Positions 1,546-20,460 of a stretch of DNA of 32,000 nucleotides are shown here, in pieces. The notes beneath the pieces were generated by a model. That model did not search any database and was not told the origin of the DNA. It was given only the letters and a program-made list of their open reading frames with translations. The DNA is from Patescibacteria group bacterium (lineage in GTDB: Bacteria > Patescibacteriota > Patescibacteriia > 2-01-FULL-39-33). Position numbers and translations under genes: made by a program. How positions within the stretch are numbered: position 1 is the stretch's first letter; every line of letters begins with the position of its first letter. Where the stretch lies: positions 90,001-122,000 of the forward strand of contig JBAZMW010000002.1 of the NCBI GenBank assembly GCA_041649575.1, in the 5' to 3' direction.

Positions 1546-1590
1546 TTTTGTCATTGCGAGCGGAGTGAAACGCAGCGAAGCAATCTTTTA
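1546..1590. repeat. left inverted repeat flanking the GIY-YIG gene
   Basis: TTTTGTCATTGCGAGC[GGAGTGAAACGC]AGCGAAGCAATCT. The reverse complement of 1891-1926 is TTTTGTCATTGCGAGC[AA]AGCGAAGCAATCT, giving 16 + 13 identical nt around an indel. Confidence 0.85.
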
Positions 1591-1602
1591 GATAAGACAG
1601 AT

Positions 1603-1893
1603 ATGGCCAAATATTATTACGTTTATGTTTTGACTAATGCCAACAATTATGTTTTATACACAGGAGTCACAAATAATTTGCAGAGAAGGTTATGGGAACA
1701 CAAAAGCGGTAAGGCGGACGGTTTTACTAAAAAATATAAGTGTAAAAAATTGGTTTATTATGAATATTCGGAGTCAATAGGCGCAGCCATAAATAGAGAA
1801 AAACAAATTAAGGCCGGCTCAAGAAAAAAGAAATTGGAATTGATAAACAATTTTAATCCGCAGTGGTTGGATTTGGGGCTGGAGATGTTTTAA
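1603..1893 (+). CDS. GIY-YIG nuclease superfamily protein (UPF0213-like, 96 aa)
   Basis: YYVYVLTN...VLYTGVTNNLQRRLWEHKSG...EKQIK matches the GIY / YIG / Arg / Glu core of small GIY-YIG proteins. Confidence 0.9.
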   Translation: MAKYYYVYVLTNANNYVLYTGVTNNLQRRLWEHKSGKADGFTKKYKCKKLVYYEYSESIGAAINREKQIKAGSRKKKLELINNFNPQWLDLGLEMF

Positions 1894-1926
1894 GAGATTG
1901 CTTCGCTTTGCTCGCAATGACAAAAT
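1891..1926. repeat. right inverted repeat flanking the GIY-YIG gene
   Basis: TAAGAGATTGCTTCGCTTTGCTCGCAATGACAAAAT is the reverse complement partner of 1546-1590. Confidence 0.85.
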
Positions 1927-1985: not shown

Positions 1986-2774
1986 ATGGACGAACAAAAA
2001 CTAGACTGCTGCCATAGCAGTAAATGCCATTGTGCCAAGTACGTAATTCTTGGCATCTTGGCCTTGGCCCTGATTGTTTACGTGGGCGTTTTAACCAGGA
2101 ACGCCTGGCGGACTTACGATTATATCGGTAAGTCGCCCGATATTCAGGATAGGATTACTGTCACCGGTACCGCCAAAGTCAGCGCCACGCCGGATGTGGC
2201 TGTGCTATACTTGGGAATTGTCAGCGAAGGCGCTACGGTTAATGCGGCGCAAAAAGGCGTCACCGAAAAAATGAATTCCATCATCGATTCTTTGAAAAAA
2301 GAATTTAAGATTGAGGCCAAGGATATTCAGACTCAAAATTTTAGTGTTAATCCCAAGTACGACTGGAGCGACGGCAAGCAAAGAATTATCGGTTACAGCG
2401 CCAATCAAAGTGTTCAGGTAAAAGTCAGAGACTTTGACAAGACCGGTGATATTTTGGCCAAAGCGACCGATTTGGGCGCTAACACCGTTTCTGGTCCGAA
2501 TTTTATAATCGACGATCCGGAAAAGGCCAAGGCCGAGGCCAGGGATAAAGCCATTGCCCAGGCCAAGGAAAAAGCCAGTTTGCTTGCCGATCAGGTTGGC
2601 ATTAAGCTGGGCAGAATTGTTAATTTTTATGAAGGCGGCAATGAAATGCCTAATGCAGTTTACAGCCGTGATATGGCCATCGGTCTGGGTGAGACAAAGT
2701 CCGTTGCCCCGGTCATTGAACCAGGCAGCCAGGACGTGCAACTCACCGTCAGTATTAGTTATGAAATAAGATAA
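1986..2774 (+). CDS. SIMPL/DUF541 (BP26/OMP28-like) domain protein with N-terminal membrane anchor
   Basis: 262 aa. TM helix YVILGILALALIVYVGVL, then ITVTGTAKVSATPDVAVLYLGI...IQTQNFSVNPKY...GYSANQSVQVKVRDF...GAN, typical of the SIMPL family. Confidence 0.8.
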   Translation: MDEQKLDCCHSSKCHCAKYVILGILALALIVYVGVLTRNAWRTYDYIGKSPDIQDRITVTGTAKVSATPDVAVLYLGIVSEGATVNAAQKGVTEKMNSIIDSLKKEFKIEAKDIQTQNFSVNPKYDWSDGKQRIIGYSANQSVQVKVRDFDKTGDILAKATDLGANTVSGPNFIIDDPEKAKAEARDKAIAQAKEKASLLADQVGIKLGRIVNFYEGGNEMPNAVYSRDMAIGLGETKSVAPVIEPGSQDVQLTVSISYEIR

Positions 2775-2781
2775 CTTGTCA

Positions 2782-2808
2782 CTTTTCTTTCTCTAGGAGA
2801 AAGAAAAG
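2782..2808. other. 12-bp perfect hairpin just after the SIMPL stop
   Basis: CTTTTCTTTCTC-TAG-GAGAAAGAAAAG. There is no T-run after it on the + strand. Confidence 0.6.
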
Positions 2809-2813
2809 CTGAT

Positions 2814-2881
2814 GCAAAAGAAACCCGCCCGTGCCGAACGCCAGCCCGACAGATCATTCTGGCGGGGTACGTTCGGGCGGG
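2814..2881 (-). terminator. GC-rich interrupted hairpin plus U-tract, functional only on the - strand (orphan terminator)
   Basis: Pairings are 2824-2828/2877-2881 (CCCGC/GCGGG), 2834-2840/2870-2876 (CCGAACG/CGTTCGG) and 2841-2844/2859-2862 (CCAG/CTGG). On the - strand the stem is followed directly by TTTCTTTT (complement of 2816-2823). Confidence 0.5.
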
Positions 2882-2886
2882 GAGTC

Positions 2887-2912
2887 GCGAGCTAAATTTT
2901 CATTTAGCTCGC
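2887..2912. other. 11-bp perfect hairpin in the eno upstream spacer
   Basis: GCGAGCTAAAT-TTTC-ATTTAGCTCGC, followed on + by an A-rich tract. Confidence 0.6.
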
Positions 2913-2954
2913 AGGAAAAAAAATCAAAATCAAAAAAAATACTAAAACTTAATT

Positions 2955-4244: not shown

Positions 4245-4274
4245 TATTAAAATATTTTTGCCTCAGTGGGTTAA

Positions 4275-4327
4275 GAGTTTTTTAAAAAAGAAAACTGCCT
4301 CATCCTGCGCGTGCGTAGGTGAGGCAG
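4275..4327 (-). terminator. rho-independent terminator of the - strand orphan gene
   Basis: Stem CTGCCTCA/TGAGGCAG (4295-4302/4320-4327). On the - strand it is followed by TTTTCTTTTTT. Confidence 0.75.
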
Positions 4328-4348
4328 TCGTGAAGAACGGGTCGGCCA

Positions 4349-4789
4349 CTACTTTACGAAGTTGAAGTGGCCATAGCGCATGCCGCTGTGAAGCCACCCG
4401 ACGATTGCTTCGCCCTTGTACTCGCCGTCAAGGACATGGGCCGTGAATAGCCAGGAGGCTTCCCTACGCTCTCCCAAAAAGTCCAACAGGAGACCGGTGA
4501 TGCGAATCGTTACTGTTTTCAGGTTGAATTCGTCGCTGGTCGCCGTACGGATTTGCTCGTCGGTAGCGCTCAGGTTGGTCGTGGCATACTGCAGGAGGCA
4601 GTAAATCATCTGTCTACCATTGTATATCCTGAGCGAGTCTATTAGCGTCGCCTGGCCCGGACAGCTTGTCACGTGGTTTTCGAAGTGCTCCCGCTTTCTG
4701 TACTTTGAGTCGGTAAGCAGCTTTGTTAGGGCCAGCCGGACAGCCTCGTCAAGCTCCACAAAGCAGCCATTTCGTTCATTTGTTGCCAT
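4349..4789 (-). CDS. hypothetical protein, 146 aa, no recognisable family; atypical composition
   Basis: ATG at 4789-4787 is preceded by GGAGG 6 nt upstream. The ORF-track start at 4828 is a GTG without an SD. The ORF ends in a TAG stop and has its own promoter and terminator. Codon bias (GAC 7:0 GAT, AAG 5:1 AAA) is unlike the neighbours. Confidence 0.6.
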   Translation of the reverse strand: MATNERNGCFVELDEAVRLALTKLLTDSKYRKREHFENHVTSCPGQATLIDSLRIYNGRQMIYCLLQYATTNLSATDEQIRTATSDEFNLKTVTIRITGLLLDFLGERREASWLFTAHVLDGEYKGEAIVGWLHSGMRYGHFNFVK

Positions 4790-4894
4790 AAGGCACCTCC
4801 ATTTCTTGCTAACGTACACCAGTCTCACTCACAGAGGCGGAGACTTGCCTCCATATTCCGCTAGGCGGAACGACCCATCCATAAGAATGGGAAT
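4790..4894 (-). promoter_or_regulatory. predicted about 105-nt structured 5' leader of the orphan gene
   Basis: Lies between the predicted -10 box and the ATG. Contains several GC hairpins and a duplicated AUGGAGG string. Confidence 0.35.
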
Positions 4895-4900
4895 TAATAT

Positions 4901-4929
4901 ATTTTACTAAATAGAATAGTTTTTGTCAA
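4901..4929 (-). promoter_or_regulatory. sigma70-type promoter TTGACA-N17-TAAAAT
   Basis: Reverse complement of 4924-4929 is TTGACA and of 4901-4906 is TAAAAT, with a 17-nt spacer. The -35 box abuts the gpmI start codon at 4931. Confidence 0.5.
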
Positions 4930-4930
4930 G

Positions 4931-11549: not shown

Positions 11550-13500
11550 ATACAAAATCGACGATTTTTTAATGGAGCATGGTCTCAAGAAAAAAAAATC
11601 CAAGACTTGGATTTGGCTGATTCTGGTCGGAGCAGCTGTGATTTTTTTGTTGGTCATTCTGGTGCCTCTGGCGACGAGTAGCCAGAAATTATTAAACGGT
11701 TTGAAAGCTGCCGAGCAAAAAGCTAACCTAGCTTTTGGTTATGCCAGTAGCGGCAACTGGAGTCAGACCGCCCGGACTTTGGAGGAATTAAATAAAGAAT
11801 TGTCAATTGTCAAGGCCAGTTCCCAGCAATTAGGCCTGATTTCTTATTTGCCTCCAATTAAAAAAATTAATTTATCTTTCGGTCAATTGGTTGATTCGGC
11901 CAATGATTTGACCTTTGCCTACGGTATGATTTTTTCTGTTTTAGATAAAATGGAACAGGAGTTAGACGTAGAAAAATTGGCGAGCGGTCTTAGTGATCGA
12001 GATAATTTTAAGGGATTGTTAAAATCAATAGCTGACAATCGCCAGGATTTGTTGTTGGCTGAAAAAAAGATTGATTCGGCTGGCCAAAAGTTATTGCAGA
12101 TTAATACTAATAATTTTTCCGGGCCGCTTAAAGACAAATTATTACAAGTTAATAAGTTGCTTCAGACCGGAGTTGACAATACCAAGACGGCTTTGCCTTT
12201 AATAACTAATCTGCCTGAAATTTTGGGCTACAACCAGGAAAAAACCTATCTTTTTGTTTTTCAAAACAATATGGAGCTCCGGCCAACTGGAGGGTTTATT
12301 GGTTCTTATGGATTAATTAAAATTAAGGACGGAAAGATAATAAACGTTTTTACCGACGACATTTATAATCTTGATAAGTTGTCGGAAGGTAAGTTGTTGG
12401 CTTTGGCGCCGGTGCCGATGCTAAAATACAACGCCCAAAAATATTGGTACCTGCGCGATGCCAATTGGTCGCCGGATTGGCCGACCTCGGCTCAAAAGAT
12501 AATTTGGTTTTTTGACCAGGAAAGGGCGGTTGCCAACCTACCGCCACTAAAACTCGATGGCGTGATTGCCATCAACCCCGATTTTATTAGTAATCTTTTG
12601 GCTGTCATCGGACCGATCACGGCTCAAGGTTTGACTTTTAAGTCTGACAATTTTGCCAGTGATTTGGAAAAATTCGTCGAATTCGATTATGTTCACAATC
12701 AAATAGCTAAGACGCAACGCAAGGATATTATTGGTGTTTTGACCGGCATAATAATAAACAAGGTTTATGATTTGCCGCCCGCCGAGCTATTGAAAATCTG
12801 GCTGGCTTTTAAGAAGAGTATTGATGAAAAAAATATTTTAGTTTTTCTGACCGATGGCAATTTACAGCAGGAATTCAGTCGAAACAATTGGTCCGGAGAA
12901 GTCAAGACGGCCGACGCCGATTATTTAATGGTAATTGATAGCAATTTTGCCGCCTTAAAAACCGACCAGGTAATGAAACGGTCCTTAAGCTATAATTTGA
13001 CCGTTGATGACAGGGGAGATTTATTCGGACACCTTGAGGTGACCTATCAGCATCAAGGTAAATATGTTAAAGATTTGATTACCAAATATCGCGATTACGT
13101 CCGGGTTTATGTGCCAGAAAATAGTTGGTTTAACAGGATAGCCGTTAAACACAACAACGAGATTAAGGATTTGAATCTAAAAGATGAAGTGGTTTTTAAC
13201 AAAGAGCTAGGCAAATCAACGGCCGCAACTTTTTTCACCGTTGAGCCGGGGGAGACCAAGACTTTGATTTTTGAATATAAACTGCCGGAGTCGGTCAAAA
13301 AACAGTACCAGTCGGGGCTGTACAAATTTAGTGTTCAGAAGCAGCCAGGGACGGTTGGACATAATCTTAAAATTTATCTAGACTTTAATCAACCGATTAT
13401 TGCCTATCACGCTGATGCTTTGCCGCATAAAATGGACAGCGAAACGGTTAGTTGGCAGACCGACCTGTCTTTGGATCGTAATTTCACCATTAAGTTTTGA
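11524..13500 (+). CDS. DUF4012 domain protein with N-terminal membrane anchor
   Basis: Contains YLFVFQNNMELRPTGGFIGSYG, the hallmark DUF4012 motif, and the TM helix WIWLILVGAAVIFLLVILVPL. An alternative start at ATG 11572 would remove the 26-nt overlap with the upstream gene. Confidence 0.72.
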   Translation: MWLKKKTVKYKIDDFLMEHGLKKKKSKTWIWLILVGAAVIFLLVILVPLATSSQKLLNGLKAAEQKANLAFGYASSGNWSQTARTLEELNKELSIVKASSQQLGLISYLPPIKKINLSFGQLVDSANDLTFAYGMIFSVLDKMEQELDVEKLASGLSDRDNFKGLLKSIADNRQDLLLAEKKIDSAGQKLLQINTNNFSGPLKDKLLQVNKLLQTGVDNTKTALPLITNLPEILGYNQEKTYLFVFQNNMELRPTGGFIGSYGLIKIKDGKIINVFTDDIYNLDKLSEGKLLALAPVPMLKYNAQKYWYLRDANWSPDWPTSAQKIIWFFDQERAVANLPPLKLDGVIAINPDFISNLLAVIGPITAQGLTFKSDNFASDLEKFVEFDYVHNQIAKTQRKDIIGVLTGIIINKVYDLPPAELLKIWLAFKKSIDEKNILVFLTDGNLQQEFSRNNWSGEVKTADADYLMVIDSNFAALKTDQVMKRSLSYNLTVDDRGDLFGHLEVTYQHQGKYVKDLITKYRDYVRVYVPENSWFNRIAVKHNNEIKDLNLKDEVVFNKELGKSTAATFFTVEPGETKTLIFEYKLPESVKKQYQSGLYKFSVQKQPGTVGHNLKIYLDFNQPIIAYHADALPHKMDSETVSWQTDLSLDRNFTIKF

Positions 13501-19543: not shown

Positions 19544-19544
19544 T

Positions 19545-19591
19545 TTTTTAAAAAAAGAGATGCCAGTCCATTCTCGTGACGGACTGGCATC
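19545..19591 (-). terminator. strong rho-independent terminator readable only on the - strand
   Basis: 11-bp perfect stem GATGCCAGTCC/GGACTGGCATC (19559-19569/19581-19591). On the - strand it is followed by TCTTTTTTT. On the + strand no T-run follows. Confidence 0.75.
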
Positions 19592-19985
19592 AGGCATTAC
19601 TATAGAGCAAGAGAGATTAACCGGCAGACAGGGCGAGAGGGGATCGTCTCTTTTCCCATCTTAATAACTTGTCATCCTCCCCCAGTGTTGCAGTAGTGAG
19701 CTCCTCCGGAGTGGTTAACTCCAGTTTAGTTCTAGCGCCCGGAAGGAGAAAGGGGGGCTCCTGCAAACACATCCGGAAGGATTAGGCTGATATAGCTTTG
19801 GCTTTCGGTGCTGTTCTGGTCCAGCCCCGAAATAATCCCAGCCCCGCAATGACGAAGGAATCAGCCATACTCTGAAAACAAGTTAACTGTCGGGACTAGT
19901 CCTTGCCCGGCGCTGGACTAGTCGTTGCGCTGGTGGCAGCTTAACCTCTCTTAGAAAAGATCTAAAGGGCACTGAAGTAGCTAGT
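19592..19985 (-). ncRNA. candidate structured ncRNA of unknown class (core 19609-19952); 5' end undefined
   Basis: No ORF of 60 aa or more in any frame. G+C is 31-34 per 60 nt in a genome with AT-rich spacers. A 12-bp closing helix (19609-19620 / 19941-19952) has one G-U pair on - that is an A-C mismatch on +. At least four internal arms are present, and the - strand terminator lies just downstream. Confidence 0.4.
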
Positions 19986-20020
19986 TTCCATCCTAATATA
20001 AAATTAATTATTTGGCAAAT

Positions 20021-20383
20021 ATGAAAATAACCGTCTTCAATAATTTTGATCCGGTCCTGGTGCTACGTCGTAGCGGTTATGGCTTAATGACCAACAGAAA
20101 AACTGGCGAACAAAGCTTTGTTCGCCGCCTGGGCAACAATTCTTATCCGCGTTTTCACGCCTATCTTAAAGATGGTTTTATTAATCTGCATTTAGACCAG
20201 AAGCAACCCAGCTACAGCGGCGTTAAGGCGCATAGTGGTGAATATGAGGGAGAGGTGATAACCAAAGAAGCAAACAGAATCAAAGAAGTAATAAATTTTT
20301 TAAAAACCGAAGACAGACCGACATCAGAGCGTGAAATTGCCGCACCAGCCAAGGGTTTTTGGTCTAAATTTTTTGGGGATTAG
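20021..20383 (+). CDS. hypothetical protein (120 aa) with C-terminal amphipathic tail
   Basis: ATG at 20021 (the ORF-track start at 20012 is TTG). I recognise no family. The C-terminus KGFWSKFFGD resembles the MinD membrane-targeting helix KGFLKRLFGG. Confidence 0.6.
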   Translation: MKITVFNNFDPVLVLRRSGYGLMTNRKTGEQSFVRRLGNNSYPRFHAYLKDGFINLHLDQKQPSYSGVKAHSGEYEGEVITKEANRIKEVINFLKTEDRPTSEREIAAPAKGFWSKFFGD

Positions 20384-20436
20384 TCTCTAAAATTATAAGA
20401 ATTAATTTTTGACAAAACAATAAAAAAATGAAAGAA

Positions 20437-20445
20437 TGATATAAT
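20437..20445 (+). promoter_or_regulatory. extended -10 element TGATATAAT upstream of proS
   Basis: Matches TGnTATAAT and ends 15 nt before ATG 20461. TTGACA at 20409-20414 pairs better with AAGAAT (20432-20437, N17). Confidence 0.4.
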
Positions 20446-20460
20446 TATAACCATAATTTT

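What the first reader, a model, noticed from the sequence alone, without database searches (positions are those of the whole stretch)
19545..20011. ORF-free GC-rich region with nested helices and its own - strand terminator: candidate novel structured ncRNA (or MITE-like insert)
The gap between the rseP stop (19543) and the next ATG (20021) has no ORF of 60 aa or more in any frame. Even so, the five 60-nt blocks I counted (19621-19920) hold 31-34 G+C, while ordinary spacers here (for example 20384-20460) are extremely AT-rich. On the - strand the region ends in an 11-bp perfect stem (19559-19569/19581-19591) followed by TCTTTTTTT. This terminator works only for - strand transcription, and nothing annotated lies upstream of it on that strand. 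I found these complementarities by hand. (a) A closing helix pairs 19609-19620 (AAGAGAGATTAA) with 19941-19952 (TTAACCTCTCTT). Its single odd position is A-C on + but G-U on -, which favours a - strand RNA. (b) GGGGA/TCCCC at 19639-19643/19678-19682. (c) A long interrupted arm pairs 19685-19693 with 19761-19770 and continues inward to the hairpin at 19708-19722. (d) GGCTGAT/ATCAGCC at 19785-19791/19860-19866. (e) A hairpin is made from two copies of the palindrome GGACTAGTC(C), at 19893-19902 and 19915-19923. Short direct repeats are also present: CCAGCCCCG x2 (19821-19829, 19838-19846) and CCGGAAGGA x2 (19739-19747, 19773-19781). Together this gives a multi-arm RNA of about 344 nt closed by a terminal helix. 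I could not match it to RNase P, tmRNA, SRP, 6S, T-box or any riboswitch I know. The alternative reading is a MITE-like foreign insert, since the closing helix extends to imperfect terminal inverted repeats of about 19 bp.
Basis: partly seen in the sequence, partly recalled or inferred. Interest (0 to 1): 0.7.

Follow-up and report, generated by a model that had tools for sequence, protein, structure and literature searches.

The report
Orphan antisense non-coding unit after rseP
A 477-base gene-free insert in an uncultured Patescibacteria genome looks like a small, separately transcribed non-coding RNA gene on the opposite strand, found in only two related lineages, but nothing shows that it folds into a conserved structure or belongs to any known RNA family.

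Summary
The window is a Patescibacteria (CPR) MAG contig. The gap 19544-20020 lies between rseP and a conserved 120-aa ORF. It has no ORF above 51 aa, and its core is 53% G+C against 43% for the window. On the - strand it has a sigma-70-like promoter (20018..19990), a 12-bp closing helix (19609-19620/19941-19952) and a strong intrinsic terminator (19591..19559 plus a T-run).

About 20 of the related lineages read at this junction have rseP and the small ORF 0-20 nt apart, so the region is an insert. Only one other lineage (L003/L008) has a comparable ORF-free unit at this junction. It has the same layout, and its ends resemble the window's while its core does not.

The claim of a multi-arm structured RNA is not supported. 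The folding z-score is about -2, which 12-14% of window segments reach. The two strands fold equally well. No internal helix is shared between the two lineages. There is no Rfam, ARAGORN or RNase P motif match.

The MITE reading is also unsupported, with no second copy and no target-site duplication, but the rest of the genome could not be searched.

Best reading: a lineage-restricted orphan antisense-oriented ncRNA unit. Close rival: a relic insert. Interest is modest.

The parts
19990..20018 (-). Sigma-70-like promoter of the - strand unit: -35 TTGCCA (20018..20013), 17-nt spacer, -10 TAGGAT (19995..19990). The -35 hexamer lies 2 nt from the ATG of the + strand small ORF. The inferred transcription start is about 19983.
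   Evidence: 9 of 12 matches. The L003 element has TTGACT-17-TATCAT (10 of 12) at the equivalent position, 1 nt from its small-ORF ATG. This is a consensus match only. Transcription has not been shown.
19953..19983 (-). 5' leader between the inferred start and the closing helix. It contains the motif UGCCCUUUAGAUCUUUUCU, shared with L003 (UGCUCUUUUAGCUCUUUAAAA). It can also form a weak local hairpin with the 5' arm.
   Evidence: the regex motif is found only in the window and the L003 lineage among about 520 kb of loci; leader plus 5' arm aligns with z=3.1, reached by 2 of 1000 shuffles; local hairpins of -9.8 and -8.4 kcal/mol, not significant against shuffles.
19941..19952 (-). 5' arm of the closing helix on the - strand RNA (AAGAGAGGUUAA). 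The imperfect inverted repeat extends to 19927-19952.
   Evidence: 12 of 12 pairs on -, including one G-U; pair probability 0.89; 5 of 300 shuffles. L003 has AAGAGGGAUCAG / CUGAUCCCCUCUU at the same place, so the distal half differs on both arms.
19621..19940 (-). G+C-rich core (53%) with local helices: hairpin 19894-19902/19915-19923, helix 19785-19791/19860-19866, hairpin 19708-19722. Short direct repeats (19821-19833/19838-19850; 19739-19747/19773-19781). No ORF, and no similarity to anything searched.
   Evidence: The core shows no similarity to the L003 core (z=-1.25).
19609..19620 (-). 3' arm of the closing helix on the - strand RNA (UUAAUCUCUCUU). It is preceded by GUCUGCCGG, which resembles GUCUGGCUGGG in L003.
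   Evidence: (3' end alignment z=1.8, reached by 44 of 1000 shuffles).
19549..19591 (-). Intrinsic terminator of the - strand unit: 13-pair stem (7 G-C), 7-nt loop, then UCUUUUUUUA. It ends 6 nt from the rseP stop codon. There is no U-run on the + strand.
   Evidence: The L003 equivalent is GAAGCUUCUUAAAUUUAAGAAGCUUC followed by UUUUUUU.

Best explanation
The gap holds a lineage-restricted, independently transcribed non-coding RNA gene of about 430 nt on the - strand, antisense to the frr-rseP-smallORF-proS gene array.

Transcription would start at a sigma-70-type promoter that abuts the start codon of the small ORF. It would run through a short conserved leader. It would then form a terminal stem between 19941-19952 and 19609-19620 enclosing a roughly 320-nt fast-evolving core. 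It would stop at a strong intrinsic terminator 6 nt from the rseP stop.

Only the promoter, leader, terminal stem, terminator and approximate length are kept in the one other lineage that has it. I therefore infer that the function lies in expression and end architecture, not in a conserved tertiary fold.

The mechanism I consider most likely is cis action. The unit splits an otherwise contiguous rseP-smallORF transcription unit. No + strand promoter is predicted for the small ORF, so its mRNA must read through the insert. The - strand RNA is fully complementary to that read-through spacer. Its promoter would also collide with or occlude read-through polymerases. Together these would decouple or down-tune the small ORF relative to rseP.

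Shown here: the sequence anatomy, the absence of coding signal, insert status, the second instance with similar ends, and the absence of any known family. Inferred: transcription itself, its ends, and the cis-antisense or insulator role.
For: - Promoter-like and terminator sites on the - strand, in both the window and L003, at equivalent positions.
- No ORF above 51 aa. L003 has no ATG ORF of 20 aa or more on the - strand.
- Six-frame peptides have no Pfam hit even at E<=10.
- The 54-aa - strand frame searched against 1.84 billion proteins gave only low-complexity multi-stretch hits.
- A stretch of 92 codons with one stop is ordinary (70% of shuffles reach it).
- About 20 related lineages have rseP and the small ORF (on the same strand) 20 nt apart or less or overlapping, for example L006, L007, L012, L013, L014, L019, L021, L024, L036, L088, L089, L090, L097, L099. 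The region is therefore an acquired unit.
- The ends resemble L003: 5' leader plus arm at 2 of 1000 shuffles, 3' arm at 44 of 1000.
- The closing helix is present in both elements with different sequence on both arms.
- The two-sequence consensus fold energy is -26.1 kcal/mol, against -13.7 +/- 4.9 for shuffled partners and -10.6 +/- 2.3 for unrelated segments.
- The closing inverted repeat is unlikely by chance (5 of 300 shuffles).
- No + strand promoter-like site lies between rseP and the small ORF.
- CPR genomes are compact. Most other gaps in this window are short and AT-rich.
Against: - No transcription data.
- The promoter is a 9 of 12 consensus match in AT-rich DNA, where such matches are common (6 found against 2.4 expected).
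- The fold z-score is ordinary. The + strand folds as well or better, in the window and especially in L003 (-3.3 against -2.0).
- The core has no detectable conservation. blastn and nhmmer find no homologue at all.
- Distribution is patchy. The closest RseP relative (L097, 64%) lacks the insert. Window and L003 are sisters in only 33% of bootstraps.
- The same junction holds unrelated inserts in other lineages: - strand orphan protein genes and REP/MITE-like repeats. It may simply be a permissive dumping site.
- G+C enrichment is not shared by L003, whose element matches its genome at 36%.
Confidence: 0.45

Rival explanations
1. Relic insert. This would be a piece of foreign or decayed DNA that landed at a permissive junction, for example a degraded - strand orphan gene or a fragment of a mobile element. 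It would have no present function. The promoter-like and terminator sites would be leftovers.
For: - Patchy presence, with the nearest relatives lacking it.
- The junction is a hot spot. L016, L026, L030 and L048 carry - strand orphan protein genes there, each with its own promoter and terminator. L020, L022, L029 and L050 carry repeat elements there.
- The same window has another - strand orphan unit with the same layout that is still coding (4245-4930).
- The core is 10 points above genome G+C, which suggests foreign origin.
- No core conservation and ordinary folding energy.
Against: - No trace of a decayed ORF: no Pfam hit, no protein homologues, open-frame length ordinary.
- No similarity to the orphan proteins of L016, L026, L030 or L048, to the small ORF, or to the 146-aa orphan.
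- Two lineages as far apart as 62% RseP identity both keep promoter, leader motif, closing helix, terminator and a similar length. Neutral DNA in a streamlined genome should have lost these.
Confidence: 0.3
2. MITE-like non-autonomous mobile element bounded by imperfect terminal inverted repeats (19609-19634 / 19927-19952).
For: - A 26-nt inverted repeat, 73% complementary.
- Conserved ends with a variable core between the window and L003.
- The genome does host a TIR-bounded element: a GIY-YIG ORF at 1546-1925.
- Relatives carry TIR-type repeats at this same junction.
- Equal folding on both strands fits DNA-level symmetry.
Against: - A single copy in 32 kb, and none in 98 loci.
- The degenerate TIR pattern gave 0 hits in IMG/VR and only 5 unrelated single-end hits in JGI metagenome contigs.
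- No blastn hit in phages or plasmids.
- No target-site duplication flanks the repeat (direct reading).
- The conserved leader, promoter and terminator lie outside the repeat, and the whole 477 nt is the insert.
- Caveat: the window's own genome is not in the scanned collections, so the remaining roughly 200 kb of the contig and the rest of the MAG are untested.
Confidence: 0.1
3. mRNA of a very small protein, for example a type I toxin-like transcript. The 5'-3' long-distance pairing would keep it inert, as in hok-type mRNAs. The candidate ORF is the 28-aa MADSFVIAGLGLFRGWTRTAPKAKAISA (19868..19782).
For: - Own promoter and terminator, 5'-3' closing helix, a length of 350-430 nt, fast evolution and lineage restriction are all typical of type I toxin mRNAs (general knowledge).
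- A possible alternative leader hairpin involves the 5' arm in both lineages.
- A short ORF with a hydrophobic N-terminal half and a basic tail exists.
Against: - The hydrophobic stretch is only about 10-13 residues, too short for a membrane helix.
- There is no Shine-Dalgarno sequence in front of it (sequence).
- L003 has no ATG ORF of 20 aa or more on the - strand, and its TTG ORFs are hydrophilic.
- No antitoxin RNA promoter is evident.
- The leader hairpins are not significant.
Confidence: 0.07
4. A known housekeeping RNA that is too diverged for Rfam. Candidates are RNase P RNA (known to be diverged in CPR), tmRNA, SRP RNA and 6S RNA. Alternatively, a + strand cis-regulatory leader such as a T-box for proS.
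For: - The size fits RNase P RNA or tmRNA.
- CPR RNase P RNAs often fall below Rfam cut-offs (PMC8172020, read).
- AGUCC motifs and a ...GCCGGUUAA... sequence before the 3' arm look vaguely like RNase P P4 and P1.
Against: - No Rfam match even at E<=10 on a 396-nt query, on either strand, in the window or in L008.
- ARAGORN finds no tmRNA.
- RNase P CR-I and CR-V consensus sequences with up to 3 mismatches do not occur in the region.
- A housekeeping RNA would keep a conserved core between lineages, and this one does not.
- There is no + strand terminator or antiterminator before the small ORF, and proS has its own promoter-like site at 20409-20437.
Confidence: 0.03

Closest known systems
Chromosomal cis-antisense / operon-splitting long antisense RNAs (for example IsrR against isiA in Synechocystis, and excludon-type antisense RNAs in Listeria)
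   Same: An independent promoter and terminator on the strand opposite a co-directional gene array. The RNA is fully complementary to a transcript that must cross it. Sequence conservation is not needed beyond the expression signals.
   Different: It is antisense to an inserted non-coding spacer rather than to a coding region or UTR of an old gene. It has a terminal 5'-3' stem. Nothing has been shown experimentally.
MITEs and other TIR-bounded small repeats (Correia, RUP, ERIC-like), and the GTCATTGCGAGC-type repeats seen in this clade
   Same: A size of 300-350 bp, imperfect terminal inverted repeats, an intergenic position, and presence or absence among relatives.
   Different: A single copy in everything searched. 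No target-site duplication. The conserved leader, promoter and terminator lie outside the repeat. The TIR sequence is unrelated to the repeat family present in this genome (1546-1925).
hok/Ldr/AapA-type type I toxin mRNAs
   Same: A structured transcript of roughly 350-430 nt with its own promoter and terminator, closed by 5'-3' long-distance pairing. Rapidly evolving and lineage-restricted.
   Different: No credible conserved toxin ORF, no ribosome-binding site, and no antitoxin RNA.
Diverged CPR RNase P RNA (Lui et al. 2021, PMC8172020)
   Same: Similar length, a closing P1-like helix, and a CPR host in which Rfam models under-perform.
   Different: No P4 / CR-I / CR-V sequences. No sub-threshold Rfam hit. 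No conserved core between the two lineages. Absent from most relatives at this locus.

Membership tests
MITE / TIR-bounded non-autonomous element | Terminal inverted repeats | tested here: met
   A 26-nt inverted repeat, 73% complementary, with a 12-nt core carrying one mismatch. Reached by 5 of 300 shuffles.
MITE / TIR-bounded non-autonomous element | Multiple dispersed copies in the genome or related genomes | tested here: not met
   One copy in the 32-kb window, none in 98 loci, none in IMG/VR. JGI metagenome contigs gave only 5 unrelated single-end matches. No hit in phages or plasmids. Limitation: the rest of the MAG was not available.
MITE / TIR-bounded non-autonomous element | Target-site duplication flanking the TIRs | tested here: not met
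   The flanks are ...CTATAGAGC|AAGAGAG... and ...CTCTCTT|AGAAAAGATC..., which share no direct repeat.
Bacterial RNase P RNA | Conserved regions CR-I (GAGGAAAGUCCGGGC) and CR-V (ACAGAAnnCGGCUUA) forming P4 | tested here: not met
   No match with up to 3 mismatches inside 19545-20020 on either strand.
Bacterial RNase P RNA | Covariance-model match (RF00010/RF00011), even sub-threshold | tested here: not met
   No RNase P hit at E<=10 on the 396-nt and 751-nt queries, nor in L008.
tmRNA | tRNA-like domain with a tag-peptide reading frame | tested here: not met
   ARAGORN found 0 genes in the window. No Rfam tmRNA hit.
SRP RNA / 6S RNA / T-box / riboswitches (all Rfam 15 families) | Match to the family covariance model | tested here: not met
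   0 matches at the gathering score in the window and in 20 related loci. Only chance-level hits at E<=10, namely terminator look-alikes and Xist_exon1.
Structured ncRNA in the strict sense (conserved secondary structure) | Covariation-supported helices across homologues | tested here: inconclusive
   Only one homologous-looking sequence exists. The closing helix is kept with changes on both arms. Internal pairs in the two-sequence alifold are short and rest on a near-random alignment. Consensus energy is -26.1 against -13.7 +/- 4.9 for shuffles.
Structured ncRNA in the strict sense (conserved secondary structure) | Thermodynamic stability clearly above genomic background, with strand asymmetry | tested here: not met
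   z is -2.0 (-) and -2.2 (+). 12-14% of window segments reach this value. For L003, z is -2.0 (-) and -3.3 (+).
Type I toxin mRNA | A small hydrophobic ORF conserved among homologues, with a ribosome-binding site | tested here: not met
   The window's 28-aa ORF has a hydrophobic stretch of about 10-13 residues and no Shine-Dalgarno sequence. L003 has no equivalent ORF.
Independent transcription unit (ncRNA gene) | Promoter and intrinsic terminator on the same strand bracketing an ORF-free stretch | tested here: met
   (consensus scans only), and for the absence of ORFs.
Independent transcription unit (ncRNA gene) | A detectable transcript with defined ends | not testable with these tools
   No transcriptome data are available here.

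The most novel reading that the evidence does not exclude
The unit is a genuinely new, functional CPR-specific RNA of about 400 nt. Its selected features would be a 5' leader, a long-range terminal stem and a freely evolving core. It could act, for example, as a trans-acting decoy or sponge, or as a co-transcriptionally switching RNA. It would have been retained since the split of two lineages with only 62% RseP identity, and further scattered members would exist that sequence searches cannot see.
Probability: 0.15. Interest if true: 0.55.

Novelty: new member of a known kind. Interest (0 to 1): 0.33.

Why it matters
Patescibacteria have tiny, densely packed genomes and almost no described regulatory RNAs. 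If this is real, a 430-nt orphan antisense RNA inserted into a conserved housekeeping gene array (frr-rseP-ORF-proS-mreBCD) would be a rare example of lineage-specific RNA-level regulation in this group. It would also show how such genes arise at a recurrent insertion junction. If it is a relic, the value is smaller but still useful. It would mark the rseP|small-ORF junction as a hot spot that collects orphan genes and repeats. It would also warn that elevated G+C plus hand-found helices is not sufficient evidence for a structured RNA in a genome of about 43% G+C.

Tried and rejected
- Known RNA families: Rfam at gathering score on the whole window and on 20 related loci, and at E<=10 on three sub-regions. 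Only terminator look-alikes and noise.
- tRNA and tmRNA: ARAGORN found none.
- RNase P: raised because CPR RNase P RNAs are diverged (PMC8172020). Rejected on CR-I/CR-V motif scans and the absence of any sub-threshold hit.
- Coding or pseudogene:
  - Six-frame peptides against Pfam at E<=10.
  - The 54-aa frame against 1.84 billion proteins, low-complexity hits only.
  - tblastn with the - strand orphan proteins found at the same junction in L016/L026/L030/L048, with small-ORF proteins and with the window's 146-aa orphan. All negative.
  - Open-frame length is ordinary.
- Extra copies or homologues:
  - blastn and nhmmer against the window and all loci.
  - Regex for the leader and inverted-repeat motifs.
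  - Phage and plasmid blastn.
  - TIR pattern in IMG/VR and JGI metagenome contigs (five chance hits).
- More orthologues: 12 contig look-ups and one GTDB scan of RseP neighbours. Only the P0002 lineage has a comparable element, and its four contigs are identical, so there is no population variation to use.
- Phylogeny, to decide one gain against two: unresolved (33% against 30% bootstrap).
- Two-sequence consensus folding: only the closing helix is credible.
- Covariance model: not built. The alignment exceeds the size and time limits, and two sequences with a random-like core would give an uninformative model.
- Literature: searches for CPR or Patescibacteria ncRNAs found nothing relevant beyond the RNase P paper.

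Full report
**Context**

The window is part of a 235-kb metagenome-assembled contig (ena:ERZ27247363:k141_2894300) of a Patescibacteria (CPR) bacterium. The finding sits in a co-directional housekeeping array: holB, a BNR protein, frr, rseP, a conserved 120-aa ORF without a Pfam match, proS, mreB, mreC. This gene order is conserved in the whole clade.

**Observation check**

- The longest ORF in 19544-20020 is 51 aa.
- G+C in the five 60-nt blocks is 32, 33, 31, 34, 31. The core is 0.53, the window 0.43, and the spacer 20384-20460 is 0.14.
- The - strand terminator (19591..19559, 13 pairs, then UCUUUUUUUA) is picked up by the scan. There is no U-run on the + strand.
- The closing inverted repeat and all three short direct-repeat pairs are found.
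- A 12-mer inverted repeat with at most 1 mismatch and arms at least 200 nt apart occurs in only 5 of 300 dinucleotide shuffles.
- In the partition function, helices (a), (d), (e) and the (c) hairpin are well populated. The outer arm of (c) is only half complementary. Helix (b) has probability zero.
Its -35 hexamer abuts the ATG of the small ORF.

**Is it exceptionally structured? No.**

- The 344-nt core has an MFE z-score of -2.0 (-) and -2.2 (+).
- I scored 106 same-length segments across the window. Their mean is -0.8 with sd 1.3, and 12-14% are at least as negative.
- The two strands fold equally well. A structure selected at the RNA level usually shows asymmetry through G-U pairs.
- Mismatches in the extended inverted repeat give one wobble to each strand (direct reading).
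- For comparison, another spacer in the same window (2775-2954) reaches z=-7.3.

**Known families**

- Rfam 15 gives nothing at gathering score for the window or for 20 related loci.
- At E<=10 on short queries it gives only terminator look-alikes and noise.
- ARAGORN finds no tRNA or tmRNA.
- A paper reports that CPR RNase P RNAs are diverged and often fall below Rfam cut-offs (PMC8172020). I therefore tested RNase P separately.
  - The CR-I and CR-V consensus sequences, with up to 3 mismatches, do not occur in the region.
  - No sub-threshold RNase P hit appeared.

**Coding potential**

- Six-frame peptides have no Pfam match at E<=10.
- The 54-aa - strand frame searched against 1.84 billion representative proteins returned four multi-stretch, low-complexity hits in long proteins.
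- The 92-codon frame with a single stop is shorter than the shuffle average.
- There is no similarity to the small ORF, to the window's other orphan protein, or to - strand orphan proteins found at this junction in other lineages.

**Comparative picture**

RseP homologues reach at most about 60-64% identity, so there are no close relatives. I read the rseP-downstream junction in about 90 loci.

- In about 20 of the loci, including most of the close relatives examined, rseP and the small ORF lie on the same strand and are 20 nt apart or less or overlap. The 477 nt is therefore an insert.
- The junction is variable.
  - One clade (L016, L026, L030), and separately L048, carry - strand orphan protein genes there.
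  - L020, L022, L029 and L050 carry AT-rich or GTCATTGCGAG/GTCATCCTGAGG-type inverted-repeat elements.
  - In L010, L011, L060 and L100 the small ORF itself is inverted.
- Only the P0002 lineage (L003, L004, L005, L008; identical to each other) has a comparable ORF-free unit of about 418 nt.
  - It has a - strand TTGACT-17-TATCAT promoter 1 nt from the small-ORF ATG.
  - It has a - strand terminator right after rseP.
  - It has a long closing stem AAAAAAGAGGGAUCAG / CUGAUCCCCUCUUUUUU.
  - It has no ATG ORF of 20 aa or more on the - strand.

**Are the two units homologous?**

- blastn and nhmmer see nothing, and the cores are unrelated (z=-1.25).
- The 5' leader plus 5' arm aligns better than 998 of 1000 shuffles. 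The 3' arm region aligns better than 956 of 1000.
- The leader-plus-arm motif CTTT(N)AGNTCTTT...AAGAGRG occurs nowhere else in about 520 kb of loci.
- The closing helix is kept with different sequence on both arms (GUUAA/UUAAU against AUCAG/CUGAU).
- A two-sequence RNAalifold gives -26.1 kcal/mol, against -13.7 +/- 4.9 for shuffled partners. The only credible shared helix is the closing one.
- RseP phylogeny places the window and L003 as sisters in the best NJ tree, but in only 33% of bootstraps. L097, which lacks the insert, is the sister in 30%.
- One gain in a common ancestor is therefore possible but unproven.

**Mobile-element reading**

- There is no second copy in the window or the loci.
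- A degenerate pattern covering both TIR arms gives zero hits in IMG/VR. It gives five unrelated single-end hits in JGI metagenome contigs.
- There is no phage or plasmid similarity and no target-site duplication.
- The conserved leader, promoter and terminator lie outside the repeat.
- The caveat is important. The window's genome is absent from the scanned collections, so most of the MAG remains unsearched.
- The genome does contain a TIR-bounded GIY-YIG element (1546-1925).

**Interpretation**

The best-supported reading (0.45) is an orphan, lineage-restricted, independently transcribed - strand non-coding unit. What is kept between the two instances is the promoter position, leader, terminal stem, terminator and rough length. 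The core is not kept.

That pattern argues against a conserved tertiary fold. It fits a function that depends on being transcribed and on the end architecture.

No + strand promoter-like site lies between rseP and the small ORF in either lineage. The small ORF must therefore be reached by read-through across the insert. The - strand RNA is perfectly complementary to that spacer, and its promoter sits on the small ORF's start.

I therefore favour a cis antisense or transcriptional-interference (insulator) role. This is inference. Transcription itself has not been shown.

The main rival (0.30) is a functionless relic at a permissive insertion junction. The patchy distribution, foreign-looking G+C, ordinary folding and the neighbouring coding orphan unit of the same layout at 4245-4930 support it. 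Against it is the joint preservation of all expression signals and the closing stem in two deeply diverged, streamlined genomes.

The remaining rivals are a MITE (0.10), a small-protein or type I toxin-like mRNA (0.07) and a diverged housekeeping or + strand regulatory RNA (0.03).

**Verdict**

The region is a real, discrete, non-coding insert with the hallmarks of a - strand transcription unit. The evidence for a novel structured RNA is weak, with no covariation beyond the closing stem, no unusual stability and no family.

Interest is about 0.33. It is a candidate worth one metatranscriptome mapping and a whole-MAG copy search, not a discovery.

Noticed in passing
window 1546-1925: A 96-aa GIY-YIG nuclease ORF (1603-1893; PF01541, E=7e-15). 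It is bracketed by composite inverted repeats TTTTGTCATTGCGAGC...AGCGAAGCAATC / GATTGCTTCG...GCTCGCAATGACAAAA. This is a small TIR-bounded selfish element between pgk and the SIMPL/DUF541 gene. ORF-less inserts with the same type of ends sit at the rseP|small-ORF junction in relatives L029, L022 and L050.
   Followed up: partly
window 2775-2954: The spacer between the SIMPL/DUF541 gene and enolase folds into three consecutive strong hairpins (MFE -66.9 kcal/mol, z=-7.3, 0 of 200 shuffles as stable). That is far more structured than the finding itself. There is no Rfam match at E<=1, and none of the three hairpins is followed by a T-run, so none looks like a terminator.
   Followed up: partly
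window 4245-4930: A - strand orphan unit lies between enolase and iPGM. It has a near-consensus promoter TTGACA-17-TAAAAT (4929..4901) whose -35 abuts the start codon of the next + gene. It also has a GGAGG ribosome-binding site, a 146-aa ORF (4789..4349) with no Pfam match, about 50% G+C, and a hairpin plus T-run near 4330-4290. The layout matches the finding, but this unit is coding.
   Followed up: partly
window 20021-20383 and loci L003, L006, L019, L097 and others: The 115-120-aa ORF after rseP belongs to a conserved family without a Pfam domain (motifs GYGL, YPRFH.Y, INLHLDQKQ.SY.G, HSGEY.GE). It is syntenic between rseP and proS across the clade. In L010, L011, L060 and L100 it is inverted relative to rseP.
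   Followed up: no
window 20105-20126: A perfect 22-nt palindrome, GGCGAACAAAGCTTTGTTCGCC, lies inside the small ORF. The scan flags it as a - strand terminator-like site, followed by AGTTTTTCTG on the - strand.
   Followed up: no
loci L016 3715-4091, L026 1290-1919, L030 3658-4897, L048 3658-4034: The rseP|small-ORF junction carries - strand orphan protein genes with their own promoters and terminators. L016 (69 aa) and L026 (150 aa) are homologous to each other (E about 4e-9, MxxCKxF...FLxDGKxVIH motif). L030 has three small ORFs. The junction behaves as a recurrent insertion hot spot.
   Followed up: partly
window 2001-2344 and 12201-12544: In the background scan, two other 344-nt segments inside coding regions had unusually negative folding z-scores on the + strand (-3.9 and -4.3).
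   Followed up: no
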